Of a stretch of 64,000 bases of DNA, positions 19,678 through 62,273 are shown piece by piece. This stretch comes from Eledone cirrhosa (taxonomy: Eukaryota): positions 31,000,001 to 31,064,000 of the forward strand of contig OZ024758.1 in NCBI GenBank assembly GCA_964016885.1, in the 5' to 3' direction. A program made the translations under genes and the position numbers. The notes beneath the pieces were generated by a model. It was given only the letters and a program-made list of their open reading frames with translations. It had not been told where the DNA came from and ran no database searches. Each line of letters begins with the position of its first letter. The first letter of the stretch is position 1.

Positions 19678-19680
<3 letters not shown>

Positions 19681-20088: not shown

Positions 20089-20189
20089 TACACTACTCCG
20101 GAGTAACCAAACCAACCTGCGCACTTCGTCGAGTGCTCCAGCCTGCATACTGAGGTGTTGGTATACAACCAACATAAACTCAAAATCTC

Positions 20190-20750: not shown

Positions 20751-21310
20751 TAAGAGAGTATTGAAGTTTGCTTGAAGCATTGTGGAACAATAAGTAAATA
20801 TATTTAGGTTGTTTGGAAGCCTCGACAATGCAAATGGGTAAATCTCCGGGTAACGAGGTCCGGTGGTGGAGAGAGAGATGTAAGTGGGTGTACGTTGAGA
20901 TGCGTGGTTTGTATAAGATGTGTGAGATGTGTAGAATGAAGGGAAGAGTATAAAGGATAGAATAAAAATAACAACACAAGAGATATTCAAAACAACAAAC
21001 AGCGAAGGACGCATTCCGGACCTGTCCGACAGACAACCTTTTCCCCCACCCCGGAAAAAAAACCCAGTTGATGGATGTGAATCCGAAATATATAGGGACT
21101 ATTAAATCTCTCCCAAGGTAACTCTCTCTTGTGTTGTTATTTTTATTCTATCCTTTATACTCTTCCCTTCATTCTACACATCTCACACATCTTATACACA
21201 CCACGCATCTCAACGTTCACCCACTTACATCTCTCTCTCCACCACCGGACCTTGTTACCCGGAGATTTACCCATTTGCATTGTCGAGGCTTCCAAACGAC
21301 TTAAAGATAT
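20751..21310. mobile_element. Solo fold-back terminal repeat (pLTR) of the Penelope element at 36548-40590
   Basis: 20981-21245 matches 40330-40590; 20751-20978 matches 36546-36775. Confidence 0.85.
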
Positions 21311-21311
21311 T

Positions 21312-21389
<78 letters not shown>

Positions 21390-22980: not shown

Positions 22981-24193
<1,213 letters not shown>

Positions 24194-24198
24194 CACAA

Positions 24199-25160: not shown

Positions 25161-25164
25161 TATA

Positions 25165-26292
25165 TACAATGATATTAAATAAATGGAAACTATATTTATA
25201 AAACCATATTTATTCTATTATATATATTTTAAGGGTACCAAAAACTTTGGTACGCTTTCATCAGATAAAATACAAATTGTGTTTTATAAATTTTGACATA
25301 GCCAAGAAACATACCTTATCAGTTGAATTTTCCTTGGATAGAGAATTTAAAGAACGGATTTTTCAAAATTGTTAGGATGAGTATGCAAATGAATATGAAT
25401 ATGTAAATGAGGTTGAGGTATATGATTGAAAAACCGTTATTTTAGACGCTATGGAAAATTTAGATATATGTTTATATTAGTAGGAGAGAAACAAAGAAAA
25501 GGAAAAAGAAAAAGAATAAGACCACTTATATACGTTAATTTGGGGGAAAGAAATTTGGATATTTACCTATAATATGTATGTACTTATATGGAGAATTATG
25601 TTTGTAAGTATTTATCTTATTACAATATTGTAGTGGGTTAAATATATAAATAATACATATGCTATTATTAAAATATATATAGATATATATATTTTAATAA
25701 TAGCATATGTATTATTAAAGAGATGTAGATAGTTTGCAATTATTAGTTGTTCATAATGAGTTACGATGGGTGTTGATTTTGTGTTTTATGTAGATAAATA
25801 AATAAATAAATAGATAGTTCAAGTTTTAGGTAGTTGTTTATAATAATATGAATTACGATGGTGTTGAATTTGTATTTTATGTAAATAAATATGGGGTTAA
25901 AATTAGGAATTTAAATATCTGAATATCTTGTTCGGCATTGAGAATGTTTTAATTTAACGGAGTTACGTGTATAATAATATAATAAGTTCAAATAATTAAG
26001 AAAGGAAAGATAACTCCAATTTTGTTTGTTAATCAATAATTTTTAAGAGTTAGTGTGAGATTAATTAATTATTTAGTCGAAAGAAGTGTGAATGATTGAA
26101 ATCGTCTTCAATAGGATACATTTTTCTAATGTCAATTAATGGTTATTAATCTACGTTTAAAAATATCTTTAGAGGCTGTAATTGGAAAAATATAATGTAA
26201 GAATTAAAGAATTAAAAAATTAAAAACATTAAAAATAAAAATAAAATTATATACATACACACATATATATATATAAACATCTATACATATAT

Positions 26293-26364
<72 letters not shown>

Positions 26365-26784
26365 TTGAAATATTAATATATTAAAATATTGAAACTTTAA
26401 ATTGTTAAAGAAGATGGGATCATTTTGAATGTTTATAGGAGTATTATGAATTACACATAGTTCTGAACGTGGAATTTTGGCGATGTCTGCAAGAAGAAAA
26501 TAATTCTGTCCTGAGATTAATAGAGTTTTGACAGTTAAACAATTTCTTCGACACAATTTACAGAATTTTGATAAAGCCATATTTCGGTACGCATGTGCTA
26601 TCGAAATCGTTTTCCAAGATATTGAATAGTCTATATTCTTGCTTTTTAAGTTCCATATAAGATGTGAAAAAGAAGTATAAGATCTTTTATCAGATCTTCT
26701 AAAAGAAGAAATCTGTCGAGTGCTCTGAATCAGTTATAAACATTTATATTTGTTGAATTTCCATCAAATTAAATATCCCTTCTG

Positions 26785-29411: not shown

Positions 29412-29782
29412 TAGTCAGTTCTTAGATATGCCAGCTCTGTGTGTATAGTGTTGATGGTATCAGAGCCTTGAGACATATGAGCTTGTTAGGAATACTTTGA
29501 TGTTGTCAGCAGGAATGGTCTTGATTCTCATTGGTCAGTTTGTAGATGGTAGCAGGTTGGTATTTGACATCAAAGAGGCAGGTTCTGTGAGGTTCAAACC
29601 ATCAGGCAAGATGACAATAGTTCCAGATGACTGATTTTCACAAAAGGCATTCTTGGTCAGATATATTTTCAAATAAGGTTAATAGTATGAAATAGATACT
29701 ACAGGTCATTCTTAAATTGAGGAGTTTATGTGGAGTGGTGCTTCTGAAAATTATGGTTGGAGTAGAAAGTTTACAAATAATA

Positions 29783-31138
29783 TATATATACAAAATTAAA
29801 TTAAGGGTTGTCATGACTGAGAGACATGCGCCATATCCACTGTAGAATAAGCTCAAAGATTCCAATGAATAGATCCGAGCATTTTATATCAACTAGAAAT
29901 AGATTCACATATATATATATATAAAATAAATACATGGAACAATCACAGGGAATAATTTGTAAAGAATGTAAGCACACACAGCTAGGTAGGTAACTAATTA
30001 AAGTATAACTAGAACTTCAAATATAGATACCTTTTAAAATGATTAATCTCCTTTGTATATATTTCTTTAAGTAAGAAATATATTTTACCAATTAATCAGT
30101 AAATCACAGTAGTCAAATCCTGGATGGTCACCAAATGAGAAGAAAATAATTATCTGCGTTTACAAAGCAAATGCAAATCTGAGAATGACTCGAACCACGT
30201 GTTGCATTTAAAAAAAATACACACATCGCACAGCGTCATCCCAGTGTCGTGAATAGGATTATCGACAGCTAGAAATAGCAGCCGAGTCTATTCAACTGAG
30301 TTAGCTCAACAATCAAGGGACCGTATATATATCCAAAATTAAATTAAGGGTTGTCATGTCTGAGAGACATACGTCATATCCAATGTAGAATAAGCTCAAA
30401 GATTCCAATGAATAGATCCGAGCATTTTATATCAACTAGAAATAGATTGACATATATATAAAATAAATACATGGAACAATCACAGGGAATAATTTGTAAA
30501 GAATGTAAGTAGACATAGCTAGGTAGGTAACTTACATTCTTTACAAATTATTCCATGTATTTATTTTATATATATGTCAATCTATTTCTAGTTGATATAA
30601 AATGCTCGGATCTATTCATTGGAATCTTTGAGCTTATTCTACATTGGATATGGCGTATGTCTCTCAGACATGACAACCCTTAATTTAATTTTGGCTATAC
30701 ATACGGCCCCTTGATTGTTGTGCTAACTCAGTTGAATAGACTCGGCTGCTATTTCTAGCTGTCGATAATCCTATTCACGACACTGGGATGACGCTGTGCG
30801 ATGTGTGTATTTTTTTTAAATGCAACACGTGGTTCGAGTCATTCTCAGATTTGCATTTGCTTTGTAAACGCAGATAATTATTTTCTTCTTATTTGGTGAC
30901 CATCCAGGATTTGACTACTGTGATTTACTGATTAATTGGTAAAATATATTTCTTACTTAAAGAAATATATACAAAGGAGATTAATCATTTTAAAAGGATA
31001 TTTGAAGTTCTAGTTAAACTTTAATTAGTTACCTACCTAGCTATGTGTGCTTACATTCTTTACAAATTATTCCCTGTGATTGTTCCATGTATTTATTTTA
31101 TATATATATATATATATGTCAATCTATTTCTAGTTGAT
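29783..31138. mobile_element. ~540-bp unit with partial direct repeat and ~600-bp inverted copy
   Basis: 29783-29995 recurs at 30323-30530; 30530-31138 is the reverse complement of ~29890-30510. Confidence 0.8.
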
Positions 31139-31281
31139 ATATATATATATTTTTGTTTTTTAATTGAGTTTGAATTATTTTTCCCACATCTTACGTTAAT
31201 TATTTTCCATTTTGACGTTATAGTCACTTATATATTATGAAATACTGTTGGCTTCACGCTCACAATAATTTCTATACTTTA

Positions 31282-31345: not shown

Positions 31346-32560
31346 GTAGAACACAGGAAGGTAATATCCGTAGTGGTAGACCACTCAGTCCATGGGACGA
31401 GTTAGGTAGAAGTGGTTACACAACAGTTAGTTCACTATACCGAGAACAATTATTTCACCTTAGCGGATCCTCAGCTCGTAATGGACATGGTTATATGGAA
31501 CAGAAGGAACCGTACGAACGCGCATGTGCAGAAACGATCACTTCACACAGGCAATACTATGTTTCGTGCGAGAGGTGTAACTGCGAAAGTTCGAAAGTTT
31601 CTAGTTGATAAGAACATTAGGATGTTGTTGTAATTCAATCTGGAGCTTTGTAGTTATGTAAGAGGTGTTTCCAGACGTGTGGGCACCGTGTGTAGAATTC
31701 ATTCTCGTGTTTAGGCAATCACTATTGCGTAATCTCTTTAGAATATTTATTCGTTCATCAATACATAGTGCACACGACAGATTGCTCCTTGCGTATGGCT
31801 TGGACTTAGTGATGGCTTTTCATTGAATGGAGTAGTCTATACTTGAGTCCTTGAGGGACCATACGTGGCTCGCGAGTTTCGTAGATGAACATCTGTCCGG
31901 GTACCTAAAGGTCGACTGGTGATTCAGGAAGCGTTCCTTAAATCGGCCCTCCGCCATACCTACATATGATTTGACCTCCTGTTGTTTATTTGGTTGGTTG
32001 GAAGTGATCACGGCTTCATAAACTACAGCGTGTGTGTTTCATTGCTGTTGAAGGGGACAAGTTTTGGGCTTACGGCAAGAGCACCCTGATGCGGTCTTGC
32101 TCTTAGGGCTCTTGGTGATGTGGGCCTTTATGTTATTAGCGCAGGAGTATCCTAGTTTTACTTTGTGTCGGTTAAAGATGGAGCGGTATTTATGGACTAT
32201 GTATTGATGAACGAATAAATATGCTAAAGAGATTACACAATAGTGATTGCCTAAACACGAGATATGAATTCTTCACACGTTGTCCACACGTCTGGAAACA
32301 CATCTTACATAACTACAAAGCTCCGGATTGAATTACATCAACATCCTGATTTTCTTATCAACTAGAAACTTTTGGACTTTCGCAGTTACCTCCCTTACAT
32401 GCAACTTAGTATTACCTGTGTGAAGTGATCGTTTCTGCGCATGCGTGGTCATACGGTTGTCCTTCCTGTTCCATATAACCATGTCAATTACGAGCTGAGG
32501 ATCCGCTAAGGTGAAACAATTGTTCTCGGTATGATGAACTAACTGTTGTGTAACCACTTC
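31342..32560 (-). mobile_element. 5'-truncated PLE (GIY-YIG remnant) with inverted 3' copy
   Basis: KSYVGMAEGRFKERFLNHQSTFR...KLASHVWSLK; arms 31391-31770 and 32200-32560; flanked by (TA)n. Confidence 0.85.
32491..32528 (+). ncRNA. Minimal type I HHR (mirror copy on minus strand at 31441-31478)
   Basis: CGAG-CTGAGGA-TCCGCTAAGGT-GAAA-CAATTG-TT-CTCG. Confidence 0.8.
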
Positions 32561-32801: not shown

Positions 32802-34803
32802 ATTTCATCACTAGAGATTAAAAAACATAACCTCCAAAACAATATGATGTCTATCATCAACAATCAGAGAAGAGCTGAAGAGGCCTGGGCCATTAAGAAG
32901 ATCAAACTCAATCCCAAAGTGTTCTTTCATTTGCAAAAAAACACAAAATCACTGGCTCTACTGTTGGCCCTCTAATTGATGAAAATGGCACTCTTCAAGA
33001 CAATGCTAAAACCATGGGTGAGATACTGCAGAAACAATACTGCTCTGTTTTCAGCAATCCTGATATGGCCGATCTGGGCTGTATCGGCGATGTTACTCCC
33101 CATTACACCTTAAAGGACATAACGTTTGGCGCCCCTGATGTCTTAGCGGCAATAAAGGAAATCAAGCATAATTCAGCAGTAGGTTCCGATAGGTTCCCTG
33201 CTTGTGTCTTGAAGGCGTGTCAATACCAACTTGCATCTCCTCTTGCCAATCTGTGGCGGAACTCACTGGATGCTGGATATGTGCCAGAAAACATTCTATC
33301 CCAGTCTGTTGTCCCAGTTTTCAAAAAAGGAAACAAATCCCTTGCCGTGAATTACCGTCCAATCTCACTCACCTCTCATATCATTAAGGTATTTGAGAGA
33401 GTGGTGAGATCGCGAATGACTCACTTCCTTGAGAGTAACAATATGCTGAACTCCAACCAGCATGGATTCCGTAATGGAAGGGATTACCTGACGCAGCTAC
33501 TGCATCACTTTGATGGCATTTTGAGAGCCTTGGGAGAGGGTTCCAACACTGATGTTATCTACCTTGATTTCAGCAAGGCCTTTGACAGGGTTGATCATAA
33601 CATTCTACTGAGAAAGCTGTCCAATATTGGTGTCACTGGAAAGCTGCTGCAGTGGATCAAGAGCTTCCTGTCAAACAGAACCCAACATGTTGTAGTCGAA
33701 GGAGTCAAATCCAGCCCAGCCAAAGTCAGTAGTGGGGTCCCACAAGGCACTGTGTTGGGCCCACTTCTCTTCATCATCTATATTAATGACATCACTGACA
33801 TCATCAAACACAGCAACATTAGAATTTTCGCTGATGATTCCAAGCTCCAAAAGGTCATCAATGGCGTGGATGACCGGATAAGCCTTCAGTCAGACCTACT
33901 GGCTGTTACCCAATGGGCGGAAAAGAACAACATGTTACTGAACGAAGACAAATTCGAACTGATCCACTTTGGAAAAGAGGATGCTCTGAAACTCCCGTAC
34001 TCCCTTCCCTCCGGGGAAACTCTCGTGGCATCTAACAACATCAGAGACTTGGGAGTAACCGTGGACAGCAACATAAGCTGGGCCACGCATATAAGCAGCA
34101 AAGTTGACATGGCCCGCAGAATGTGTTCCTGGATCCTCAGAACCTTCCAGTCGAGAGATTCCCACACCATTATCCTTCTCTTCTCCACTTTTGCCCGACC
34201 ACACCTTGAATACTGTTGTCCACTGTGGTCTCCCCACACGAAACAAAGTGTCATGAAACTTGAAGCTCCCCAAAGGGCAATCACGAAAAAGATAGATGGC
34301 ATGTCAGACCTTGACTACTGGGGTCGACTAGAAGGACTGAAACTTTACTCACTCCAACGTCACCGTGAGCGTTATATTATCTGCATGATGTGGAAAATGT
34401 TTCATCAGCACTGCCCAAATGATGTTGGCATCACCTTCAAAATACACCCAAGGCTTGGGCCCCGTGCTATCCGTCCCAAACAAAAATCTAAATCGCAACA
34501 CATAACAACAATACGGCACAATTATTTCACCTCAATCGGCCCTGCTCTCTTCAACATCACACCAGGACACGTCAAAACAGAAACTGACCACACAAAATTT
34601 AAGAAATCTTTGGACAAATTCCTCCAAGTAATCCCGGACAAACCACCCACACCCGGATATGTCTTCGCAAACAGTAATTCTCTTCTCGAATGGGCCATGG
34701 TGCCCAAATCCTGAGTTGAAAGACTTCGCCAGGTGATGCTATTAAGTTAGACATGGCCTGGGCCAATACTGGCCAAAACATTTCAAAGTTATTCAAAGTT
34801 ATA
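32802..34803 (+). mobile_element. 5'-truncated CR1-group LINE
   Basis: RT ORF plus short 3' UTR ending in (TTCAAAGTTA)2. Confidence 0.88.
33014..34714 (+). CDS. CR1-group reverse transcriptase (partial ORF2)
   Basis: NYRPISLTS, QHGFR, YLDFSKAFDRV, SGVPQGTVLGPLLF, FADD, RPHLEYC..WSP. Confidence 0.9.
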   Translation: MGEILQKQYCSVFSNPDMADLGCIGDVTPHYTLKDITFGAPDVLAAIKEIKHNSAVGSDRFPACVLKACQYQLASPLANLWRNSLDAGYVPENILSQSVVPVFKKGNKSLAVNYRPISLTSHIIKVFERVVRSRMTHFLESNNMLNSNQHGFRNGRDYLTQLLHHFDGILRALGEGSNTDVIYLDFSKAFDRVDHNILLRKLSNIGVTGKLLQWIKSFLSNRTQHVVVEGVKSSPAKVSSGVPQGTVLGPLLFIIYINDITDIIKHSNIRIFADDSKLQKVINGVDDRISLQSDLLAVTQWAEKNNMLLNEDKFELIHFGKEDALKLPYSLPSGETLVASNNIRDLGVTVDSNISWATHISSKVDMARRMCSWILRTFQSRDSHTIILLFSTFARPHLEYCCPLWSPHTKQSVMKLEAPQRAITKKIDGMSDLDYWGRLEGLKLYSLQRHRERYIICMMWKMFHQHCPNDVGITFKIHPRLGPRAIRPKQKSKSQHITTIRHNYFTSIGPALFNITPGHVKTETDHTKFKKSLDKFLQVIPDKPPTPGYVFANSNSLLEWAMVPKS

Positions 34804-34805
34804 TA

Positions 34806-36275
34806 CTAACCTACCCTCTATCTTCTTTAGAATAATAAATAAGCACTTTCGAGATTCACATAGATACAGCAAAATCTTTAACACTAAATCTATTAGACTA
34901 TCTTACTCCATGGCACCAAATATAGAGGCACACATTGAGATGCTTAACGCTAAAAAGATACATAACAACACCAGAATACAAATTTATAACAATAACAATA
35001 CAATCACCATTGAACACAACAGAATATCTAATACACAACCACTCACTAATAGGCAAACAAAACGTAACACATTTGTACAGGCATCGCAGCCCACCAATAA
35101 TGCCAAAGTTGCCCATGACAAGAATTGTAGCTGCCACCTACCTGAAACCTGTCCATTACATAATGAAGGTATGCAGTCTAACCTGGTTTACCAATGCACA
35201 GTGGAATCAGACAACCAGAAATGGTATTACATCGGAGCGACTGGGAATACATTTAAAGCCAGTTGGTATACACACCGTTACGCAATGAAACATTCCCAGC
35301 ACCGTTATGTAACTACCCTTGCAAACAAGACCTGGCAGCTGAGGGAAAGTAACCATCAATACACCCTGAAGTGGAAAAAATTATCGAACGCGCCCCCATA
35401 TCGGAGTGGTATGAGAAGCTGTCGATTATGTGACCTTGAGCTGTTCCACATTTTGAGTTCGAAGAATAAGTTACTCAACAATAAAATCGAAAGATCAATT
35501 TATTGTAACCATAGACTCAAAGAAAAGTTTTCGCACTACAAGCGCAAATCGAACCCTTAACCTCTTACTACCAACTGACAAACTGCACATACTTAGACTT
35601 TATACCCTCTTGTTGTATCTAAACTCTTTTAATTACCCACAAAAACCAATACCTATATGCCTCCCTTCTCCTTCATTCCTCTTCTATTTCTTTTCGTTCT
35701 CTTCCTTTCTTCCCTCCCCTTTTTGGGTATCTTTTCTTTTCTTCATTCTCCCCCCTTCTTTACTTTTATTTTTATCATTATTATTTTTATCTTTATTTTT
35801 TATATATATATATTTATCAATTTATATCCGCCCCTCTCTCTCTCTCCATTCCTCCCACTATGATCAATTTAATTCTCTTTAACTCACTACAATCGATGAC
35901 ATGAAGTCTACGTATCAAAACTGATCAAGGAATCCTTCCACCTCTACCCCTCCCGCCATCTCAGTTTGTCACTCTACTTCCTAACTCCTCTCCCCCTTCC
36001 TCTCTCTCTCTATACTATTCCGTTTGTCCCCTCACCACCTGATTCCCCTCTCTCTATACTAGTAAATACTATTCCAAATAAATGTTTTTCTCTATATATT
36101 AACAACTATTTCAAGAGTAATTTACTATTTTGAAAATTTGGACTGTGAACAACAATTATAAATGAGTGGCTGGTATTTGCAGTATAGCAATATTAGGTTG
36201 CACTTACCAATGAAACGGTCGTAAATACCTGGATAAAATCCTTCTCTTAATGCTTACCTGTGTTTTCTCTTTTAT
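34806..36275 (+). mobile_element. PLE 3' fragment: GIY-YIG endonuclease ORF (34910-35560) plus 3' region
   Basis: CSC..CPL, LVYQCTV..YYIGAT, TTLANKTWQL, CRLC, LLN motifs; HHR-like remnant at 36121-36225. Confidence 0.85.
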
Positions 36276-36539: not shown

Positions 36540-36547
36540 TTATATAT

Positions 36548-39500
36548 AAGAGAGTATTGAAGTTTGCTCGAAGCATTGTGGAACAATAAGTAAATATTTT
36601 TAAGTCGTTTGGAAGCCCCGACAATGCAAATAGGTAAATCTCCGGGTAACAAGGTCCGGTGGTGGAGGGAGAGATGTAAGTGGGTGTACGTTGAGATGCG
36701 TGGTGTGTATAAGATGTGTGAGATGTGTAGAATGAAGGGAAGAGTATAAAGGATAAAAATAAAAATAACAACACGAGAGAGTTACCTTGGGAGAGATTTA
36801 ATAGTCCCTATATATTTCGGATTCACATCCATCAACTGGGGTTTTTTCCGGGGTGGGGGAAAAGGTTGTCTGTCGGACAAGTCCGGAACGCGTCTTTCGC
36901 TGTTTGTTGTTTTGAATATCTGAGGTATTCGGCCGAGCGCGCGTGCGCGTGAAATGGGGTCGGTCGTACAGAGGTCAGCGGCCGAATGAGGGAGTGGGAT
37001 GGCGCTAGCTATCAGTCCATTCTCTGCCTGTTTGTTAAATGTTACTGTGTGTGTGCGCGTGTTGTTGTCTCGCTTGAGTGTGTGTGTGTATGTGTTGTTG
37101 CCTTGTTCATCTGTATTGGCAGTGTAGTATGTTCGTATAGTGGAATGCTACTGTGTGTGTGTGCGTGTGTGTGTGTAGTTGTCTCGTTTGCGTGTGTGTG
37201 TGCGTGTGTTGTTGCATCGCTTGTTAATTTAAACCAGCCATTTCATTTCGCTTCTCTCTGATCGGTTGTTTATTTGCGGTTGCAGTCGTTTGATAAAAAG
37301 CGCTTCCTTGATACGTAACGTGCCGACGTTTCTTTCAGTCGCTAGAATTGTGACAATGGGCCTTCCGTCTTTGTTTCCGCATTTGTCTATGTGTTTTCGG
37401 AAAGACGAGGCCCAGGTTTTAGTGTGTTCCTTGATCCGGATGTGCAAAGGTCGAATTGTGCTACCTATGTAGTATTGGTTGCACCTGTCACATTCTATCT
37501 TATACACGACGTATGTGCGTAGGCAACAGTTAGCATGGCGTATCGGGCAGTCTCTGAGGGAGCATGCGTCAGTAGATTTTTCGGGTTTCCTGGAGAGGCA
37601 TCTTCGCAGGGAGGGGCCCGAGTGGGCCAGGTGGATGTCGAGGCCCTCCCTCCGTATAGCCTTGCGGATAGCGTTGGTGGTTTTTTCGCCCAGGTGTGGC
37701 ATTTTAAGGAAGCACTTGCCTTGGGTGCTTCTCTGTCTCTTGCGTCTGGTGTCTCTTATTCTGTCTGTGATCGAGGTAGGGTACCCGTTCATCTCCAGCA
37801 CCTCGAGGAATCGCTTGGTATGAGTGACACCACTTGCGGGATCGCTGCATCTGTTTTTGATTCGCGCGATCTCGTTCGTGATGTATCCTCTTTTGGCACT
37901 GTTAGGGAGGGCGGACTTGTAGTGAACGAATAGGTCCCTGCAGGCTGCCTTTCTGTAGAAGTTGCAGTGGATCCCTCCTTGTTCCGTGATGTTGATTCGG
38001 AAGTCAAGGAGGGCAAGTGACCCGTCTTCGTTGGGGTGTTCAACACTGAAGTCAATGTTCTCGTCCGTGTTGTTGAACGTCTCATAGATTCTGTTCGCCG
38101 TGTCTTGGGAAGATGTGAGGATGAGGATATCGTCCACGTATCTTGAGAAAAAGGCTACGGCGTTGGGGTGGCAGGCGTTGAGTGCCTTGCGTTCGAGGTT
38201 GTCCATGTAGGAGATCGCTAGCACACCTGATAGGCTTGATCCCATGGGCAATCCCGAGGTTTGTTGGTATATTTGGTCAAGGAATCCGAAGTAGGTGTTG
38301 TCGACGACGATGGATAGGAGTTGGTGGATGTCAGTGGTGGTGAGCCCGAAGCAGTGTAGGTCGGTGGATTGGACGCGTTCCGTTAGTATATTGACGGCCG
38401 GGAGTGCCGGGACCGAGGTGTAGAGGGCGACTACATCAAGGCTGAAAGCATATCTGTTATTCCTTCTGGTGTCGGGATCCATTTGATGCAGGCGCTTCAA
38501 CACCTCCTCGGAGCTGTTAACGTGTCCCGGCAAGGTGTCTAAGATGGGTTTGAGTATTCTGGCTAGGAGCCATGAAATTTTGTAGAGTGGTCCCTCCACG
38601 CTCGATACGATGGGCCTGATTTTCAGGTCGGGTCCCTGTTTGTGTGTTTTCACGAGGTGGTAGAAGGTGGGTATTCTGCTGTTCCTCGTGAGGAGGTTTA
38701 TCTCAGCTTCTTCGGGAGCTTCCGCCGGTCGCAGATGTTGGTCCAGGCGGAGTTGATGTGTTCTTCTATCTGTGCGGGAGTGATTCCCGTGACCTTGGAG
38801 TAGAGGTTGTCATCGTCAAGGTGTTGGAGGGCCTGGGTGTTGTAGGCCTCTATGCTGATGACGCAGAATTCTTTTCTCTTGTCGGAGGGGAGATAGATGA
38901 GGTTCTTCTATTTTAGGTTGGAGAGAGTGGTGAGTTGAGATTTGGTGAGGTTATGTGTTGTGCGTGTGTGTGTGTGTTTGTGAAGTATATCCGAGATGGA
39001 GTGTTTTAGCCTGATGTGTTTAGTGTCGAGTTCGTGGTTGGTGGGTGGAGGGTGGAGTGGGTTGTCGGGGTGGTAAGTGGGGAACTTGGGGTGGGTTGTG
39101 TCGGCGCTGTTATTATCTGTGGCGCTGTTTATAGCGGTCACCCATTTAAGTTGGTAAGAGGTTCAACAACACGGACGAGAACATTGACTTCAGTGTTGAA
39201 CACCCAAACGAAGACTGGTCACTTGCCCTCCTTGACTTCCGAATCAACATCACGGAACAAGGAGGGATCCACTGCAACTTCTACAGAAAGGCAGCCTACA
39301 GGGACCTATTCGTTCACTACAAGTCCGCCCTCCCTAACAGTGCCAAAAGAGGATACATCACGAACGAGATCGCGCGAATCAAAAACAGATGCAGCGATCC
39401 CGCAAGTGGTGTCACTCATACCAAGCGATTCCTCGAGGTGCTGGAGATGAACGGGTACCCTACTTCGATCACAGACAGAATAGGAGACACCAGACGCAAG

Positions 39501-40590
39501 AGACAGAGAAGCACCCAAGGCAAGTGCTTCCTTAAAATGCCACACCTGGGCGAGAAAACCACCAACGCTATCCGCAAGGCTATACGGAGGGAGGGCCTCG
39601 ACATCCACCTGGCCCACTCGGGCCCCTCCCTGCGAAGATGCCTCTCCAGGAAACCCGAAAAATCTACTGACGCATGCTCCCTCAGAGACTGCCCGATACG
39701 CCATGCTAACTGTTGCCTACGCACATACGTCGTGTATAAGATAGAATGTGACAGGTGCAACCAATACTACATAGGTAGCACAATTCGACCTTTGCACATC
39801 CGGATCAAGGAACACACTAAAACCAGGGCCTCGTCTTTCCGGAAACACATAGACAAATGCGGAAACAAAGACGGAAGGCCCATTGTCACAATTCTAGCGA
39901 CTGAAAGAAACGTCGGCACGTTACGTATCAAGGAAGCGCTTTTTATCAAACGACTGCAACCGCAAATAAACAACCGATCAGAGAGAAGCGAAATGAAATG
40001 GCTGGTTTAAATTAACAAGCGATGCAACAACACACGCACACACACACGCAAACGAGATGACTACACACACACATGCACACACACACAGTAGCATTCCACC
40101 ATACGAACATACTACACTGCCAATACAGATGAATAAGGCAACAACACATACACACACACACACACACACTCAAGCGAGACAACAACACACGCACACACAC
40201 ACACAGTAACATTTAACAAACAGGCAGAGAATGGACTGACAGCTAGCGCCATCCCACTCCCTCATTCGGCCGCTGACATCTGTACGACCGACCCCATTTC
40301 ACGCGCACGCGCGCTCTGCCGAATACCTCAGATATTCAAAACAACAAACAGCGAAAGACGCGTTCCGGACTTGTCCGACAGACAACCTTTTCCCCCACCC
40401 CGGAAAAAAACCCCAGTTGATGGATGTGAATCCGAAATATATATTAAATCTCTCCCAAGGTAACTCTCTCTTGTGTTGTTATTTTTATTTTTATCCTTTA
40501 TACTCTTCCCTTCATTCTACACATCTCACACATCTTATACACACCACGCATCTCAACGTACACCCACTTACATCTCTCTCTCTCCACCAC
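36548..40590 (-). mobile_element. Penelope-like (Poseidon-type) retroelement with ~1.4-kb inverted duplicate of its 3' part
   Basis: Minus copy 39150-36548; plus copy 39162-40590 mirrors 38079-36660; both ends abut (TA)n. Confidence 0.92.
37229..38653 (-). CDS. PLE reverse transcriptase plus GIY-YIG endonuclease (N-terminus frameshifted or truncated)
   Basis: KTHK..IRPIVS, FSLDVVALYTSV, GLPMGSSLS, RYVDD, LLDF, VVYKIECDRCNQYYIGST..RIKEH..KEALFIKRLQPQIN. Confidence 0.93.
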   Translation of the reverse strand: MKTHKQGPDLKIRPIVSSVEGPLYKISWLLARILKPILDTLPGHVNSSEEVLKRLHQMDPDTRRNNRYAFSLDVVALYTSVPALPAVNILTERVQSTDLHCFGLTTTDIHQLLSIVVDNTYFGFLDQIYQQTSGLPMGSSLSGVLAISYMDNLERKALNACHPNAVAFFSRYVDDILILTSSQDTANRIYETFNNTDENIDFSVEHPNEDGSLALLDFRINITEQGGIHCNFYRKAACRDLFVHYKSALPNSAKRGYITNEIARIKNRCSDPASGVTHTKRFLEVLEMNGYPTSITDRIRDTRRKRQRSTQGKCFLKMPHLGEKTTNAIRKAIRREGLDIHLAHSGPSLRRCLSRKPEKSTDACSLRDCPIRHANCCLRTYVVYKIECDRCNQYYIGSTIRPLHIRIKEHTKTWASSFRKHIDKCGNKDGRPIVTILATERNVGTLRIKEALFIKRLQPQINNRSERSEMKWLV

Positions 40591-40596
40591 CATACT

Positions 40597-41805: not shown

Positions 41806-43657
41806 ATAAGCAAAAGGGATATTTAATTTGTTTGTAATTCAACAAATATAAATGTTTATAACTGATTCAGAGCACTCGACAAGTTTTCTGGAGTATAATA
41901 TTCAATGATATTAAATAAATGGAAACTATATTTATAAAACCATATTTATTCTATTATATATATTTCAAGGGTACCAAAACTTTGGTACGCTATCATCAGA
42001 TAGAATACGAAGTGTGTTTTATAAATTTTGACATAACCAAGAAAAGATACCTTAACGGCTCAAGTTTTTCTTGGATAGTGAAGGGATACGAGAAGAAAAG
42101 TCAGATATTCCAAATTATAAAGATGAGTATGCAAATGAGGTTGAGGTATAGGGCTGAAAAAACCCCGTTATTTTAGACGCTATGCAAATTTAATTAATTA
42201 GGATATATGTATGTCTGAGTAGGAAGAAGAAAAAGGAAGATGAGCTTGTATTTACCTTAATTTAAAAGGAATTTACAATTTTGGGGAATGGTGGAATATG
42301 ATTCCAGAGTTTATTTAGCTATATTATGAGTTATAATATTGTATATATAATCAATTAGATTATAAGGTTGTAAGTAGATTTTATCGTATTACATTACAAT
42401 AGGTTATACGTATATAAATATCTATATAGATTGATAATTGTGCATGCATAAGTATTATAGAAATAGAAATAATTTACAATTATTCGTTGTTTACTTTTCT
42501 AATATGAGTTACGAAGGATGTTGGTTTTGCATTTTACATCAAAAACAGGTGGTTCAAGTTGTAAGGGGTATTCTAATGATACCCCTCTAAATATATTTTT
42601 TTCTTAGATGTAGATTGATAATCTTTAATTGACATTCTGAAAATGTATCCTCTTTACGATAGTTCTTCGAAATGCACTACGTTTTTCCTCTCCTTTTGAT
42701 CTTCAAACTTTCAGACATCCTTCGACTAAAATAATTAATCTCACACAAAATAATATATAATTTTCTCTATAAATCTTCTGAGTAAATCATTCATCAAATT
42801 TAACGATTAACAAACAAGACTGGAGTTATCTTTCCATTTTCAATCGTGCAAACATAAACATATTATATTATAATATGTACGATAAACTATATAACTTCGC
42901 TAAATTATCAATATTCTGAAAACACTTTCAATTTTGGAACAAAATATTCGAACCTACAAATTGTTATCCTCTTACAACTTGAACCACCTGTTTTTTTTAT
43001 GTAAAATGCAAAACCAACATCCTTCGTAACTCATATTAGAAATATAAACAACTAATAATTGTAAATTATTTCTATTTCTATAATACTTATGCATGCACAA
43101 TTATCAATCTATATAGATATTTATATACGTAATGTAATGTAATAAGATAAAATATACTTACAACCATAATTCTTCATTTAATCTAATTGATTATATATAT
43201 AATATTATAACTCATAAAATAGCTAAATAAATTTAAATTCTGGAATCATATTCCACCATTCCCCAAAATTGTTAATTCCTTTTAAATTAACGTAAATACA
43301 AGCTCTTCTTCCTTTATCTTCTTCCTACTCATACATATATCCTAATTATTTAAATTCTGCATAGCGTCTAAAATAACGTTTTTTTTCAGCCCTATATCTC
43401 AACCTCATTTGCATACTCATCTTAATAATTTGAAATATCTGACTTTTCTTCTCTCATCCATTCACTATTCAAGGATAACTTGAACCGTTAAAGTATCTTT
43501 TCTTGGTTATGTCAAAATTTATAAGACAAACTTTGTATTTTATCTGATGAAAGCGTACCAAAGTTTTGGTACCCTTGAAATATATATAATAGAATACATA
43601 TGGTATTTCCATTAATAGAATAAATATGGTATTTCCATTTATTTAATATCATTGTAT
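41806..43657. mobile_element. Large family H1 fold-back element (~670-bp arms) with two HHRs
   Basis: 41903-42565 mirrors 42970-43657; HHRs at 41947-42008 (minus) and 43535-43597 (plus). Confidence 0.85.
43535..43597 (+). ncRNA. Type I hammerhead ribozyme (family H1)
   Basis: GTATTTTAT-CTGATGA-AAGCGTACCAA-AGTT-TTGGTACCCTT-GAAA-TATATA-TA-ATAGAATAC. Confidence 0.85.
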
Positions 43658-43714
43658 ATATATATATATTAATTCTGGCAATATTATTACAACAATATGA
43701 CCCTCCCCAAGTAT

Positions 43715-44029: not shown

Positions 44030-44190
44030 CATAAAATGTGTGAGATCCGTGGTACAGTTAGGTATATTTGAAAAAAAGGAAAAGAATGATTTCACTTGTA
44101 GTTCTAAACAAATTTATTTAATTTTGTAACATATAACCACAAAATGTAGCACCATCACGAGACCGAGGTATTCCGTACTTCTCTGTACTG

Positions 44191-44247
<57 letters not shown>

Positions 44248-44629
44248 CATATTCGTGTACAGATATTTTTGCATACATAATAACAAAATATAAACAAACG
44301 TATTTATTTCACGAGGCTCGAAAAGGATAAATATATATCAAATATATAAGAACCCTAGAGCAAATCCCGGGCAACGCCGGGACATTCTGCTAGTAATACT
44401 ATAAAATTAAATCAATTTGTTTAGAACTATATGTGATGTCATTCTTTTCCCTTTTTTCAAATATATATATATATATTTATATATATATATATATATATAG
44501 TAATAATAAATTTGAAGACTAAAATCCAAAGCGGGCTCGATAAGGATAAATATATATCAAATATATAAGAACCGTAGAGCAAATATTTATTAAAATAACA
44601 GATTAAAGTTTAAGCAAAAACTCACTTTC

Positions 44630-50875: not shown

Positions 50876-50931
<56 letters not shown>

Positions 50932-50932
<1 letters not shown>

Positions 50933-51641
50933 CAAGGTTTAGCAAATAAGGAAAAGTTTCAAAATAAATTTCAAAAAATTCACTATACTCTCTATGGTTA
51001 CCTTTACCGAATCGGTTTGGAGTCTCAAAAATAAATGGACAGTCTTGCGGCCTTCCATTGAAAAGATAGAAGGTTCTTTTCACTCGGAGAATATAAAATT
51101 CCCGAGTTCAAATTACGAACTGGCGCTATTCAAAATTGTTCCCGAGATGAGAATGAATGATGTGGAAGTAATTCTGTCCAGTGCCGTGTGTAAAGATAGA
51201 AGCAGAGGCAGGGAGGTCAGTCTACTACCACTATAAATAGCAGCAGTCAAAACGACCAAATTTTATCTCGACCAAGAGGAGAATTATAATAATAAAGTAT
51301 ATATCCCTACACGAAAAAAGCGTCCAGGGACGCATGTATTGTCCAACCATATGCCAATGTGGTTCAATGGCAAGTTAATAAATTAACAACCCAGAACATA
51401 TATATTCAAGGTTTAGCAAATAAGAAAAAGTTTCAAAATAAATTTCAAAAAATTCACTGTACTCAATATGGTTACCTTTACCGAATCGGTTTCGAAATTT
51501 ATTTTGAAACTTTTTCTTATTTGCTAAACCTTGATTATATATGTTCTGGCATGTTAAATTATTAACCTGCCATTGAACCACATTGGCATATGGTTGGACA
51601 ATACATGTGTCCCTGGACGCTTTTTGCGTGTAGGGATATAT

Positions 51642-51645
<4 letters not shown>
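50932..51645 (-). mobile_element. Decayed copy of the 61642 retrozyme-like family with inverted 3' copy
   Basis: Direct repeat at 50933 and 51407 (~474-bp period); 51493-51640 mirrors 51300-51452. Confidence 0.8.
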
Positions 51646-51701
<56 letters not shown>

Positions 51702-52689: not shown

Positions 52690-53260
52690 TCCTGCCTGGA
52701 AAAAAATATTATTTATAAGTGTACCATTAAATCCGGAGGCAACGAGTGGTATTACGTGGGATCAACGGCAACATCGTTTAAATCTCGATTATATAGGCAT
52801 TCTTACTCAATAAAACACCAGAGCTAAAGAAATGTAACAACTTTAGCAGAAAAAGCTTGGACGCTCAGGGATAGCGATCAAAAGTTTACCCTAAAATGGG
52901 AGAAATTAGCTAAAACCCAAAGCTTTTCCAGGAGCCAAAATTTCTGCAAATTGTGTAATCTTGAGATTTATTACATAATCACACACAAGAAGAAATTGCT
53001 GAATAACAGAATTGAACGAACATTATTCTGCCGTCACAGAACTAAAACCCTTTTTTCCCACTACAAGCCGAATATTACATAAAAGAGGGACATCCCCCCA
53101 ACTATATAAACCTCAATCTAGTTAGAAAAATATAAAAACAATCTCTTCTCAACATATATTAATAACCTTAAATTACCACACTAATAATGGAAAGATATGC
53201 TGATGAGAATAGGTGCAAATATGCGATAATGAATGTGTCTAAAAACGTCCATAAGTATGT
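52690..53260 (+). mobile_element. Degenerate PLE GIY-YIG fragment plus 3' region with decayed HHR (~53196-53254)
   Basis: IIYKCTIKSGGNEWYYVGSTATSFKSRLYRH..TTLAEKAWTL..FCKLC; homologous to 34910-35560. Confidence 0.8.
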
Positions 53261-53340: not shown

Positions 53341-53380
<40 letters not shown>

Positions 53381-54695
53381 CATTATGAAGAGAGAAGAAA
53401 CATTTAGATATAATTAGTAATAAAATGTATCATACCTAAACTGCTCCTAAATTCCTCGACTACGTAGTTTCGTGGCATAAACAAAAACAATATATCATAA
53501 AGACATAGAGTCCTTGCGAGGTCTGCCGACTTATCAAGAGGATACCTCATTTTACTAGTCTCAAGAACGCGTCTACACGACGTGAGAAAGAATTCCAAAA
53601 GGCGGAGGGGGAGATAGTCACGCGATATAACGGTCGAGAAACAGAGCTAAGCCTCTTATAACCACGAAGAAAATACCACGGAGGCGGAGGGGGCATTTAT
53701 ATCGAGGCCGTAGAAGAGGTGGTGAAGAAGGCGAGAAGTATGAGTAATGGAAGCTTTCCGGCTGTCCCCACACCTCAAAGATTGCTCGACCAGAGGGAGT
53801 TATTAACAATATATTTAGAAACACACAGATACATGCGGACACACACATATATACATGAATGCATCCGCACCCAACTGTGAGTTAAGGGTGCCAACTTCAC
53901 CGATGTTGCTCAATGAATGACTGGGACAGACCAATTCAGTTGAACTAGACTGAACCAGTATCAGAGTTAAAAATACATTATGAAGAGAGAAGAAACATTT
54001 AGATATAATTAGTAATAAAATGTATCATACCTAAACTGCGGATGCATTCATGTATATATGTGTGTGTCCGCATGTATCTGTGTGTTTCTAAATATATTGT
54101 TAATAACTCCCTCTGGTCGAGCAATCTTTGAGGTGTGGGGACAGCCGGAAAGCTTCCATTACTCATACTTCTCGCCTTCTTCACCACCTCTTCTACGGAC
54201 TCGATATAAATGCCCCCTCCGCCTCCGTGGTATTTTCTTCGGGGTTATAAGAGGCTTAGCTCTGTTTCTCGACCGTTATATCGCGTGACTATCTCCCCCT
54301 CCGCCTTTTGGGATTCTTTCTCACGTCGTGTAGACGCGTTCTTGAGACTAGTAAAATGAGGTATCCTCTTGATAAGTCGGCAGACCTCGCAAGGACTCTA
54401 TGTCTTTATGATATATTGTTTTTGTTTATGCCACGAAACTACGTAGTCGAGGAATTTAGGAGCAGTTTAGGTATGATACATTTTATTACTAATTATATCT
54501 AAATGTTTCTTCTCTCTTCATAATGTATTTTTAACTCTGATACTGGTTCAGTCTAGTTCAACTGAATTGGTCTGTCCCAGTCATTCATTGAGCAACATCG
54601 GTGAAGTTGGCACCCTTAACTCACAGTTGGGTGCGGATGCATTCATGTATATATGTGTGTGTCCGCATGTATCTGTGTGTTTCTAAATATATTAT
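53381..54695. mobile_element. Two inverted, slightly more than unit-length copies of a ~595-bp HHR-containing non-coding unit
   Basis: 53381-53442 recurs at 53976-54037; 54037-54098 recurs at ~54632-54693; arms are reverse complements in permuted register. Confidence 0.88.
54364..54453 (+). ncRNA. Type I HHR with U3-A8 core (mirror copy on minus strand at 53453-53542)
   Basis: TCCTC-TTGATAA-GTCGGCA...TGCCAC-GAAA-CTACGTAG-TC-GAGGA. Confidence 0.75.
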
Positions 54696-55536
54696 ATATA
54701 TGTATATATATATATATATATATAGATGTGTATGTATATGTATATATGTACACATAGACTAGAGTATGTATGTATATATGTGTGTGTCTATACGTGTGTA
54801 TATAAAGATAAGTTGAGTATGAAAATGTATACACATGAACGCGTATGTATGTACATGAATACATGTGTGTATATATATATATGTATGCATGTGTATATGT
54901 ATGTAAGTATGAACATGTTACTATGTGAATGTGAGTATATGTATTTTGTAGAGGTGTGCAAATATATTTGTGTGTGAATGCGTGGGTGAAAGGATACGTA
55001 CACTTGAAAGAAAAATTTAAGTCTGAATGTTAATTAAGTGCAAACACAAAACCAACCACGCATATCTTTACTATCTCTAATCCTTCTATAGATTTAGAAA
55101 AATAACCAATAATATATTCTATAAAAATGTCAAAACAACAGATGGGAATCTAATTACTCACTGCCACCAAAAATTCTCACTGCTATCAAAAAACCACTCC
55201 CTCAACTATTCTTCTAACAACTTCACCCATCCCTCCTAATATTCTCTATAAAAACCAAATAGGTCCTCAGTAATATTATTCTGATGAAATGACAGTAAAT
55301 AATAACATTGAAATATTGAATGTCTGCATAACTAAAACTTTGTAAATAGCAGCTGTTTTAGGTTATGTAACTGTTATAGAAACACGTGTCAATAAATTCC
55401 TTTCAACTAAACTGTATCCATTCAAATCTTTCTATATATATATATATATGTAAAAGGTAAACAGAAATAACCACACAATCGGTAGAGTATATGGAAGGGA
55501 TATATTAGTTTAACGCTTGATATAGCAGGAAGGAGG

Positions 55537-55571
55537 TCTTAACGTTTCGGACGCTAGTCCTTCATCAGAAG
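55537..55571 (-). ncRNA. Minimal type I HHR within element 55450-56222 (fold-back arms 55843-56025 and 56030-56220)
   Basis: Minus: TCTT-CTGATGA-A-GGAC-TAGC-GTCC-GAAA-CGT-TA-AGA. Confidence 0.8.
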
Positions 55572-57907: not shown

Positions 57908-58470
57908 CTATCCGTTAGGGTATAATGTGGGGCTGTAATACAGGAAAGGTTTGTGCAATTTATGTTTACAAGCCGAAATTGCCTCAGATTTTTTGTTTAA
58001 GATGTGGTCTTTGGCGTAGAGTATTTCCAGGGCTACAGCGGCGCAGAGGTCACATGGTCTTTTATTTTCGTTATACGATTTAGCCCCAGCTAGGATCTCC
58101 CAGTGTAACTTATATTGGGTGTGGTTGTCTTTTAGACTCCAGATATAAGTTGAAAGTGATGTCATATTCCTTCTTAAAGGGTTAAGAAAAGAATGGGTAT
58201 GCATGTAAAGACGCTGCTTGATTCTATTGGGGGTTAACCCTATGTAGGCCCTACGGACGTGAGTATTTCAACCTTACATTTGTAGACAATGTTACTAGAG
58301 AGGCATTTCCCGGATAGAGGCAGTCAACCCGATTCCTACAATTACGGTTAGTACTAGCTACAGGGTTTGCACGTGTTCCTACGGCTAGGTAATTTAGCTA
58401 AATTTGAAGCTGTGATGTTATGTGCAAAGTTAGGAGTCGTAGAGTAAGAAATCTTAATGGTATTTCTATA
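57908..58470 (-). mobile_element. Degenerate PLE GIY-YIG fragment
   Basis: TIKISYSTTPN, TSLSTYIWSLKD..YKLHWEIL..CDLC..ILNKKSE..CKH. Confidence 0.8.
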
Positions 58471-60369: not shown

Positions 60370-60749
60370 CAATCACATATATTCTTATTTGTTTGACCCG
60401 AATTACTTGGTCATTTTTATGGCTATGCGGATGATTGTTTAACCATCGTCTCAGTGTGTTTGGCCCTTAACGTATGTTGTAGCTCTGGTTCATCTGATTC
60501 ATCGAGCGCTTGCCACACATCTCGGAAGTTCTTTTTCGTTAGCTCCTAAGCCGAAATACGATTCTCGCTAATTTATATTTGTATATATATATATATTTAT
60601 ATATATATATAAGAAAAACCACAGACCCTCCATCTCAACTCACCTTTTGAAAAGCACAAGAACTGCGAAACCGGTAAAGGAACCAAATAAATATATATAT
60701 TTTTAAAAAAAATATGACTCCAGTTGCATTTTCGATTTCATCTCTTTTT

Positions 60750-61592: not shown

Positions 61593-61641
<49 letters not shown>

Positions 61642-62251
61642 AACAAGGTTTAGCAAATAATGAAAAAGTTTCAAAATAAATTTTAAAAAATTGCCTTTAC
61701 CTACTATAGTTACCTTTACCGATCGGTTTCGAATCCCAAAAATAAACGGAGGCCATACGGCCTTCGTTGCAAAGAAAGATTCTCGTCAGAAGGTTCTTTT
61801 CATTCGAAGAATATAAAATTATTGAATTTAAATTACGAACTAGCGCTATCAAAACTGTTCCTGGGATGAGAGTGGATGAAGAAACAATTTTTTCAAGGGC
61901 CGAAGTAAAGATAGAGGCAGAGGGAGGTAGGTCCAACCGGCCGCAACTATCACTAGCAGCAGTCAGAGCGACCCAATTTGTCTCAACAGTATAGGAGAGT
62001 ATTAATAATAGGAAATGTGTTCCTTCACGCACAAGGCGCTAAGGGACACATGTATTGTCCAACCAAATGCCAATGTGGTTCAATGGCAGGTTAATAAATT
62101 AACGAGCCAGAACATATATAAACAAGGTTTAGCAAATAAGGAAAAAGTTTCAAAATAAATTTTAAAAAATTGACTTTACCTACTATAGTTACCTTTACCG
62201 ATCGGTTTCGAATCCCAAAAATAAACGGAGACCATACGGCCTTCGTTGCAA
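61642..62251 (-). mobile_element. Retrozyme-like element: ~479-bp unit plus ~130-bp direct repeat, between (TA)n tracts
   Basis: 61642-61772 recurs at 62121-62251. Confidence 0.85.
61712..61794 (-). ncRNA. Type I HHR with extended stem II
   Basis: Minus: ACCTT-CTGACGA-GAATCTT...[AACGAAGGCC-GTAT-GGCCTCCGTT]...GGGATTC-GAAA-CCGATCGG-TA-AAGGT. Confidence 0.88.
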
Positions 62252-62273
62252 ATATATGTATATATATATATAT

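What the first reader, a model, noticed from the sequence alone, without database searches (positions are those of the whole stretch)
53381..54695. Inverted arms that are different circular permutations of one ~595-nt HHR unit: footprint of a circular RNA template
Seen: the left arm is unit 53381-53975 plus its first ~60 nt again. The right arm begins as the reverse complement of 53869, runs back to 53381 (reached at ~54524), passes through the end-to-start junction into the reverse complement of 53977, and continues to ~53810. Each arm is ~1.1 units long, starts at a different register and carries one HHR. There is no credible ORF, and the whole insertion is flanked by (TA)n. A simple fold-back of the left arm cannot generate this. 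Inference: reverse transcription around a circular or multimeric RNA, twice and in opposite orientations, i.e. a retrozyme-like circRNA larger than typical animal retrozyme monomers.
Basis: partly seen in the sequence, partly recalled or inferred. Interest (0 to 1): 0.8.

Follow-up and report, generated by a model that had tools for sequence, protein, structure and literature searches.

The report
Ribozyme-bearing Penelope-type retroelement, inserted head-to-head
This is a young, non-coding jumping element carrying a hammerhead ribozyme that was pasted in as two back-to-back copies in the way Penelope-like retrotransposons insert; a circular RNA template is possible but not required, and the family offers a simple way to test that old idea.

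Summary
The geometry is real. Two head-to-head arms (662 and 657 nt) are each one 595-nt non-coding unit plus 67 and 62 nt. Each carries one type I hammerhead motif (U3-A8 variant). The insertion lies in (TA)n with a likely 12-14 bp target duplication. The different registers are not random: in public contigs of the family, both outer ends (80 and about 245-252 nt after the ribozyme cut) recur as junctions to (TA)n. They behave like the two fixed reverse-transcription starts of Penelope-like elements (PLEs), with a 165-nt 'tail' instead of the usual 30-40 nt. Partial tandem, inverted copy and tail together are the published PLE insertion structure. It recurs in this window in a second non-coding family with no detectable ribozyme and, in part, in a coding PLE. 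A circular template for such more-than-unit copies was proposed in 2014 and units up to 972 bp are reported, so neither point is new. A linear RNA of 1.4 units explains both arms equally well; no RNA data were available. Verdict: a non-autonomous, PLE-mobilised, retrozyme-like element with an unusually long tail. Template linear about 0.45, circular about 0.35.

The parts
53378..54039 (-). Left arm, 662 nt: unit positions 14-595 then 1-80 (position 1 = first base after the ribozyme cut); a full unit preceded by a 67-nt truncated copy (partial tandem, pLTR-like)
54037..54693 (+). Right arm, 657 nt: unit positions 184-595 then 1-245; a 492-nt 5'-truncated copy plus a 165-nt extension
54037..54039 (.). 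3-nt microhomology (TGC) at the head-to-head junction; the right arm starts at the 5' base of a predicted hairpin (54037-54072)
54364..54453 (+). Type I hammerhead motif: 5-bp stem I, core TTGATAA (U3-A8 variant) 54369-54375, 59-nt stem II region, GAAA 54435-54438, palindromic helix III, predicted cut after C54448. Catalysis not shown
53453..53542 (-). Identical hammerhead motif in the left arm, predicted cut after 53458
54529..54693 (+). 165-nt 'tail' between the two recurrent family 3' ends (position 80 = 54528; positions 244-252)
   Evidence: loose ends into (TA)n at 54528 (8 contigs), 54097 (3), 54105 (3)
54440..54527 (+). Predicted long hairpin ending at the first 3' end; it pairs the cut-site region and competes with the active ribozyme fold
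   Evidence: prediction only
53366..53377 (+). Left copy of a likely 12-bp (up to 14-bp) target-site duplication inside the (TA)n run
54694..54705 (+). Right copy of the likely target-site duplication
52696..53067 (+). Neighbouring, older, broken GIY-YIG-type endonuclease fragment of a separate PLE (47% identical over 124 aa to the ORF at 34751); context only, no DNA similarity to the unit

Best explanation
A non-autonomous, non-coding retroelement (retrozyme-like mini-PLE, 595-nt unit with a type I hammerhead) was inserted by the RT and GIY-YIG endonuclease of an autonomous Penelope-like element. Steps: (1) the PLE protein binds an RNA longer than one unit that is not cut at the crossed ribozyme site [crossing shown; linear form inferred]. 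(2) The endonuclease nicks both strands of a (TA)n run 12-14 bp apart [TSD seen; enzyme inferred]. (3) Each nick primes reverse transcription at one of two fixed internal sites, 80 and about 245 nt after the cut site, each just 3' of a predicted hairpin [recurrent ends shown; priming inferred]. (4) The two cDNAs stop after 662 and 657 nt and are joined head-to-head through a 3-nt microhomology [junction shown]. I slightly favour a linear read-through RNA from a partial-tandem source of at least 1.39 units. PLE-type mobilisation as a whole I put at about 0.85; the confidence given is for the linear-template version. This locus has one ribozyme per strand, so it cannot itself release a monomer for circularisation.
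For: Partial tandem, inverted 5'-truncated copy, one-sided tail and (TA)n targeting are the described EN+ PLE structure (PMC8557442 passages; PMC3846280 passages, which also report permuted overlapping parts in inverted orientation). A purified PLE protein cleaves and extends both target strands, starts RT at two internal sites that delimit the tail, and mainly uses uncleaved RNA (PMC11167929). Both outer ends recur as family junctions to (TA)n in run X1. The cut-to-end distance of 80 nt matches 56-82 nt in 5 other hammerhead-bearing arms in the window. A coding RT + GIY-YIG PLE at about 36541-40596 is also head-to-head, with 3' ends about 117 nt apart. The element at 29781-31141 has both arms longer than a unit and no hammerhead found at up to 1 core mismatch. 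Both arms share 5 letters that are rare (under 7% of depth) in X1, which points to one source lineage if X1 represents the same family pool. The active ribozyme fold is not populated in longer contexts (P stem I 0.00), and the left arm's 5' end lies 13 nt from the cut site. GIY-YIG remnants with Hydra-clade motifs lie at 34751 (CxCX5C, CxxC, CxH) and 52696 (CxxC, CxH).
Against: The tail is 165 nt, not 30-40 nt. Both arms overshoot one turn by nearly the same amount (67, 62 nt) from different starts. All 8 measurable overshoots are 62-232 nt, shorter than a memoryless stop would give (P about 0.005 at the mean arm length of 296 nt, 0.04 at 200 nt; hand-picked set of 39 arms); a circle explains this more simply. 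No autonomous partner sharing sequence with the unit was found in the window, and no genome was held. No source locus of 1.4 units or more of this family was seen. The central junction was not listed in any run laid (single-locus joints may fall under the 4% listing threshold).
Confidence: 0.45

Rival explanations
1. Same PLE machinery and the same two start sites, but the template is a monomeric circle made by ribozyme cleavage of a dimer and ligation. Each RT goes once round and stalls shortly after meeting its own cDNA.
For: Both arms cross the cut site seamlessly and end 62-67 nt past one turn. 8 of 8 more-than-unit arms in the window stay under 1.5 units. In the related 50924 and 61635 elements the arm passes the cut-site position twice. 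The unit is a closed loop in contigs: one 620-nt cyclic contig in X4, and the 54631->54037 joint in X1, X4 and X11. No variant at 4% or more is listed in the core letters in X1. The hammerhead strand folds better than shuffles (z -4.7, 0 of 100) and the other strand does not (z -0.7). Animal retrozymes of coral, mussel and axolotl accumulate as circRNA (PMC7229834 passages).
Against: A closed contig loop arises equally from partial tandems in DNA. Control retroelement windows reach z of -4 to -11, so the fold score is not diagnostic. The geometry occurs without a detectable ribozyme, and in Naiad PLEs that lack canonical hammerheads (PMC8557442). PAc hammerhead cleavage is dispensable in vitro, and 8 of 9 Xenopus retrozyme dimers showed no cleavage. 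Other paired arms in the window are unequal (for example 749/230 and 572/166 nt).
Confidence: 0.35
2. DNA-level origin: fold-back, template switching in repair, or recombination between nearby copies rearranged an existing tandem into inverted permuted arms.
For: 3-nt microhomology at a hairpin base; the window is full of palindromes and microsatellites.
Against: A likely TSD brackets the whole structure. Both outer ends equal recurrent family 3' ends. The same layout recurs in unrelated families.
Confidence: 0.07
3. The unit is only the pLTR of a multi-kb coding PLE, and the arms are truncated pieces of that element.
For: Retrozyme units are related to PLE pLTRs in Xenopus; 58 loose ends were not shown.
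Against: The unit joins its own start seamlessly in both arms and in 3 of 3 contig runs. Among the 6 loose ends shown for X1, only a single-contig one is long and non-repetitive. No Pfam or significant tblastn match.
Confidence: 0.05
4. Assembly or library artefact (chimeric fold-back).
For: Arms are 99.4-100% identical, and inverted repeats are hard to assemble; no long reads were available.
Against: The arms differ at 3 sites. At one the left arm matches X1 fully, and another is polymorphic in X1 (69/31%). There is a likely TSD, and the same geometry is seen in a copy diverged by 5-14% at 29781-31141.
Confidence: 0.03

Closest known systems
EN+ Penelope-like elements (Penelope/Poseidon, Neptune, Hydra, Naiad): insertion structure
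   Same: Partial tandem forming a pLTR, head-to-head inverted 5'-truncated copy, one-sided tail, (TA)n target, type I hammerhead shortly before the 3' end, short TSD (PMC8557442, PMC3846280, PMC11167929).
   Different: No RT or endonuclease ORF; the whole unit is 595 nt; the tail is 165 nt rather than 30-40 nt.
Animal non-LTR retrozymes (PMC7229834; bioRxiv 10.64898/2026.07.22.740005)
   Same: Non-coding unit with one type I hammerhead, GC 42%, end-to-start junction, co-occurrence with PLEs, size inside the 51-972 bp range of the 2026 survey.
   Different: No two same-strand ribozymes at this locus; larger than the 150-450 bp of the 2020 description; PLE-type variant hammerhead (U3-A8, 59-nt stem II region); dispersed inverted insertion instead of an array; circRNA not shown.
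Schistosoma mansoni PLE minimal hammerheads (PMC4209133)
   Same: U3-A8 core covariant, enlarged helix II, short helix I, palindromic helix III, and pairs of motifs 100-700 bp apart on opposite strands.
   Different: Here the opposite-strand motifs are 990 nt apart at their cut sites, both arms exceed one unit, and helix II is much longer.
Non-autonomous Chlamys PLEs such as MRC1 (PMC8557442)
   Same: Non-coding PLE derivatives that form pLTRs and head-to-tail copies.
   Different: Green-algal, mostly without a canonical hammerhead, and similar to autonomous partners at the 3' end, which I could not show here.
L1 twin priming
   Same: Two target nicks prime on RNA and give an inverted 5' segment joined by microhomology.
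   Different: No poly(A); starts are fixed internal sites; arms are longer than one unit.

Membership tests
EN+ PLE (autonomous) | ORF with telomerase-like RT and GIY-YIG endonuclease | tested here: not met
   Longest internal frame 89 codons; 0 of 7 frames hit Pfam; no significant tblastn match of two window PLE proteins to the unit
EN+ PLE insertion structure | Partial tandem (truncated copy before a full copy, pLTR) | tested here: met
   Left arm = 67 nt + 595 nt
EN+ PLE insertion structure | Inverted 5'-truncated copy adjacent at the 5' end (head-to-head) | tested here: met
   Hammerhead strands diverge from 54037-54039
EN+ PLE insertion structure | Optional 30-40-bp tail between two fixed 3' ends | tested here: not met
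   Two recurrent 3' ends exist but lie 164-172 nt apart
EN+ PLE insertion structure | (TA)n target bias and short TSD | tested here: met
   (TA)n on both sides; 12-14-bp direct repeat. 15 of 83 TA-rich runs carry such an interruption, so chance is low but not nil
EN+ PLE insertion structure | Type I hammerhead in the repeat | tested here: met
   Core motif in both arms; 9 hits in the window vs 0 in each of 10 shuffles; no Rfam hit
Non-autonomous PLE derivative | Sequence shared with the pLTR or 3' end of an autonomous PLE | tested here: inconclusive
   None in this 64-kb window; whole genome not held
Animal non-LTR retrozyme | Non-coding unit with type I hammerhead, GC under 50% | tested here: met
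   GC 0.42
Animal non-LTR retrozyme | At least two consecutive same-strand units with complete hammerheads | tested here: not met
   One motif per strand at this locus; other loci could not be examined
Animal non-LTR retrozyme | Unit size 150-450 bp (2020 description) | tested here: not met
   595 nt; inside the wider 51-972 bp range of the 2026 preprint
Animal non-LTR retrozyme | Highly self-paired monomer | tested here: inconclusive
   z -4.7 sense vs -0.7 antisense; controls reach -4 to -11
Animal non-LTR retrozyme | Self-cleavage and accumulation as circular RNA | not testable with these tools
   Needs RNA or an in vitro assay
Animal non-LTR retrozyme | Absence of PBS and PPT | not tested
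   No search for tRNA primer sites was run
Plant LTR retrozyme | Type III hammerheads in two direct LTRs, 4-bp TSD | tested here: not met
   Type I topology, inverted arms, 12-14-bp repeat
MITE / TIR DNA transposon | Terminal inverted repeats at both ends | tested here: not met
   The two termini are different unit positions (80 and 245) and are not inverted copies of each other

The most novel reading that the evidence does not exclude
The insertion records a PLE reverse transcriptase priming twice, at two fixed hairpin-flanked sites 165 nt apart, on a monomeric 595-nt ribozyme-made RNA circle, each cDNA stopping about 65 nt after one full turn. The 'one turn plus a short overshoot' ceiling seen in all 8 measurable arms of several families would then be a general DNA footprint of circular templates, and direct structural evidence that animal retrozyme circles are copied by PLE machinery.
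Probability: 0.3. Interest if true: 0.65.

Novelty: new variant of a known kind. Interest (0 to 1): 0.4.

Why it matters
How PLEs make partial tandems and inverted copies, whether their hammerheads matter, and whether animal retrozymes are really moved by PLE proteins through circular RNA are open questions; in the papers I read the link rests on co-occurrence and pLTR similarity. A short, young, apparently abundant non-coding unit with the full PLE insertion signature and two fixed start sites makes these questions testable by counting. If 5' ends track the start site by one turn, the template is circular; if they are fixed, it is linear. It also suggests that PLE tails can be 80-170 nt long, and warns that such elements can be mis-annotated as MITEs.

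Tried and rejected
Rfam: no hit at gathering score in the window. At E<=5 on the right arm, 6 of 6 matches were miRNA-precursor models far below their cut-offs and reflect hairpins only. No whole genome held, so no survey of copies. Exact 23-nt motif: 0 matches in metagenome contigs and in viral contigs. X22 (raw Hi-C reads, about 1% read) gave 0 reads and is no test. Earlier scan notes: nothing in 3 look-ups. Coding remnant in the unit: none; an 8-residue match to the PLE endonuclease (E 0.9) was rejected as chance. Homology to other units in the window: an apparent likeness in alignment A1 did not exceed shuffles in 16 of 16 comparisons (highest z 2.2). Covariation: 12 of 14 variant sites were structure-neutral vs 9.1 expected, with no double-sided change, and A/G changes opposite U are neutral by default, so this is not counted as evidence. 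Fold z-scores were downgraded after controls; units of 5 other elements gave z -2.2 to -3.0 on the presumed sense strand and 0.1 to -4.2 on the other. The constrained ribozyme fold and the stem II index were off by one base and were redone (-23.3 vs -24.4 kcal/mol). Homologue search with the 34751 ORF gave 1 unnamed protein among 150 candidates. The bacterial promoter scan is irrelevant here and at chance level. Equal arm length as a sign of simultaneous priming was rejected as a general rule, because other pairs are unequal. 'Octopus' and 'cephalopod' were used only as guessed search terms; the organism was not established.

Full report
Observation. The structure is as described, within a few bases. 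Direct repeats of 67 and 62 nt at a spacing of 595 and inverted matches of 492 nt (99.4%) and 232 nt (100%) define a left arm 53378-54039 and a right arm 54037-54693. Numbering the unit from the base after the predicted cut (54449), the right arm is 184-595 + 1-245 on the + strand and the left arm 14-595 + 1-80 on the - strand. The arms are head-to-head and share 3 nt at the centre. They differ at 3 of 492 positions. The longest internal frame is 89 codons, and 0 of 7 frames tested hit Pfam. The 12 nt before the element are repeated directly after it, 14 with the shared AT. Only 15 of 83 TA-rich runs in the window carry such an interruption, so this is probably a real target-site duplication.

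Ribozyme. Each arm has a type I hammerhead motif: 5-bp stem I, core TTGATAA, a 59-nt stem II region closed by G10.1-C11.1, GAAA, a palindromic helix III and TC. The descriptor, written from the recalled consensus, finds 9 motifs in the window and 0 in each of 10 shuffles. Rfam misses it. The U3-A8 core, enlarged helix II, palindromic helix III and opposite-strand pairs are all described for PLE hammerheads (PMC4209133, parts 1-2 of 4 read). The active fold is 1.1 kcal/mol above the local optimum and is not populated in longer contexts, so cleavage, if any, probably needs a dimer or protein help. This is prediction only.

Other copies. No genome was held. A run search listed 20 holders in 16 studies, none on record as RNA. 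I laid 3 of the 20 holders and one raw-read run on one unit, 54037-54631. X1 gave 1266 short contigs at very high summed depth, which suggests an abundant family, though the tool warns that this is no copy number. Of the 6 loose ends shown for X1, three run into (TA)n: at 54528 (position 80; 8 contigs), 54097 (244; 3 contigs) and 54105 (252; 3 contigs); 58 further loose ends of the call were not shown. These are the outer ends of the two arms. The end-to-start joint 54631->54037 appears in X1, X4 and X11, and X4 holds the unit as one cyclic 620-nt contig; partial tandems in DNA give the same picture. X22 gave 0 reads and is no test. Both arms share five letters found in under 7% of X1 depth, so they come from one source lineage, or the window's organism differs from that of X1.

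Surroundings as controls. The window is rich in head-to-head elements in (TA)n. At 29781-31141 both arms exceed a unit of about 520-540 nt (752 and 611 nt), with 3' ends about 104 nt apart; I found no hammerhead there at up to one core mismatch. One arm exceeds a unit at 24192 (unit 517), 50924 (474), 61635 (479) and 17455 (280); 3' ends are staggered by 82 and 113 nt in the first two. A coding PLE (RT and GIY-YIG) at about 36541-40596 is head-to-head with a stagger of about 117 nt. GIY-YIG remnants at 34751 and 52696 show motifs given for the Hydra clade, which targets (TA)n and has hammerheads. None shares sequence with the unit, so the partner is only a candidate.

Mechanism. In PLE terms the left arm is a partial tandem (67-nt pLTR plus full unit), and the right arm is a copy truncated by 103 nt plus a 165-nt tail; it exceeds one unit only because the tail is longer than the truncation. 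A purified PLE protein nicks and extends both target strands, starts at two internal RNA sites that delimit the tail, and mostly uses uncleaved RNA (PMC11167929, parts 1-2 of 4 read). That accounts for two opposite cDNAs with fixed, different 3' ends. One linear RNA from position 14 to position 245 of the next unit (1.39 units) contains both arms, and partial tandems of that size exist here for other families. Shown: geometry, likely TSD, recurrent ends, crossing of the cut site. Inferred: enzyme, priming and the form of the template.

Case for a circle. Both arms overshoot one turn by 62-67 nt from different starts. The 8 overshoots I could measure (62-232 nt) are shorter than memoryless stopping would give: P 0.005 at the mean of 39 hand-listed arms, and 0.04 at a mean of 200 nt. 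The set is small, chosen by eye and mixes families, and a linear source of about 1.5 units also imposes a ceiling. The hammerhead strand folds better than shuffles and the other strand does not, but control windows from other retroelements do as well or better, and the signal sits mainly around the two 3' ends. I put linear at 0.45 and circular at 0.35.

Known work. Partial tandems, inverted copies, tails and (TA)n bias: PMC8557442 (passages and the Hydra section), PMC3846280 (passages) and PMC8969392 (passages). Circles as templates for more-than-unit PLE or retrozyme cDNA: PMC4209133, PMC7229834 and PMC7761336 (passages). Retrozyme units of 51-972 bp and their PLE origin: bioRxiv 10.64898/2026.07.22.740005 (parts 1-3 of 5 read; its supplements are closed and may list similar families). 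PMC13282606 was seen in passages only and has no occurrence of 'ribozyme'. L1 twin priming is recalled. In 8 searches and the parts I read, I did not find a non-coding hammerhead unit reported with two fixed ends 165 nt apart. The library lacks most subscription papers and Repbase, and I did not open supplementary files of any paper.

Verdict. The feature is real and largely explained: a non-autonomous, retrozyme-like element with the PLE insertion signature and an unusually long tail. It works like a PLE passenger and like an animal retrozyme, but at this locus it fails the two-ribozyme test for an active retrozyme and the 30-40-bp tail rule. Its value is as a test case for the circular-template model. 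Interest 0.4.

Noticed in passing
window 29781-31141: Second element with both head-to-head arms longer than one unit (752 and 611 nt; unit about 520-540 nt), 3' ends about 104 nt apart; no hammerhead found at up to 1 core mismatch.
   Followed up: partly
window 50924-51655 and 61635-62252: Related family (80% identical), units 474 and 479 nt, with an intact hammerhead motif at 61789-61717 (-), 82 nt from the 3' end; arms of 1.2-1.3 units pass the cut-site position twice.
   Followed up: partly
window 24192-25164, 17411-17945, 44063-44584: Further partial-tandem plus inverted non-coding elements in (TA)n with repeat spacings of 517, 280 and 219 nt.
   Followed up: partly
window 19674-20090 and 41894-43664: Head-to-head inverted pairs, each arm with a hammerhead motif 56-76 nt from the outer end.
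   Followed up: partly
window 36541-40596; fragments at 20733-21389: Coding PLE (RT + GIY-YIG) as a head-to-head pair with 3' ends about 117 nt apart; a second inverted pair of its 3' region lies at 20.7-21.4 kb.
   Followed up: partly
window 34751-35560, 52696-53067, 57935-58246, 31739-32194, 26551-26706: Five related GIY-YIG-type endonuclease remnants; the first two show Hydra-clade motifs. Pfam missed the two that were scanned, 34751 and the frame at 26284-26733.
   Followed up: partly
window 55541-55568 (-) and 60647-60676 (+): Two more hammerhead motifs, the second again with the U3-A8 core.
   Followed up: no
window 443-13775: Head-to-tail array of about 5.9-kb non-LTR retrotransposon copies (gag-like ORF plus endonuclease/RT-like ORF, by eye), 82-99% alike; the + strand folds far better than shuffles (z -4 to -11).
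   Followed up: no
runs X4 and X11 laid on window 54037-54631: Runs labelled as other organisms hold the unit at depth about 8-13, crossing the end-to-start joint (in X4 as one closed contig), with most of the majority letters of X1; carry-over, related species or a mobile RNA could not be told apart.
   Followed up: partly
window 15988-62705: About ten short near-perfect palindromes (50-480 bp) in AT-rich DNA, probably short head-to-head insertions of the same kind.
   Followed up: no
window 32897-34714: 605-codon RT ORF of a second non-LTR type, next to a GIY-YIG remnant; typed by eye only.
   Followed up: no
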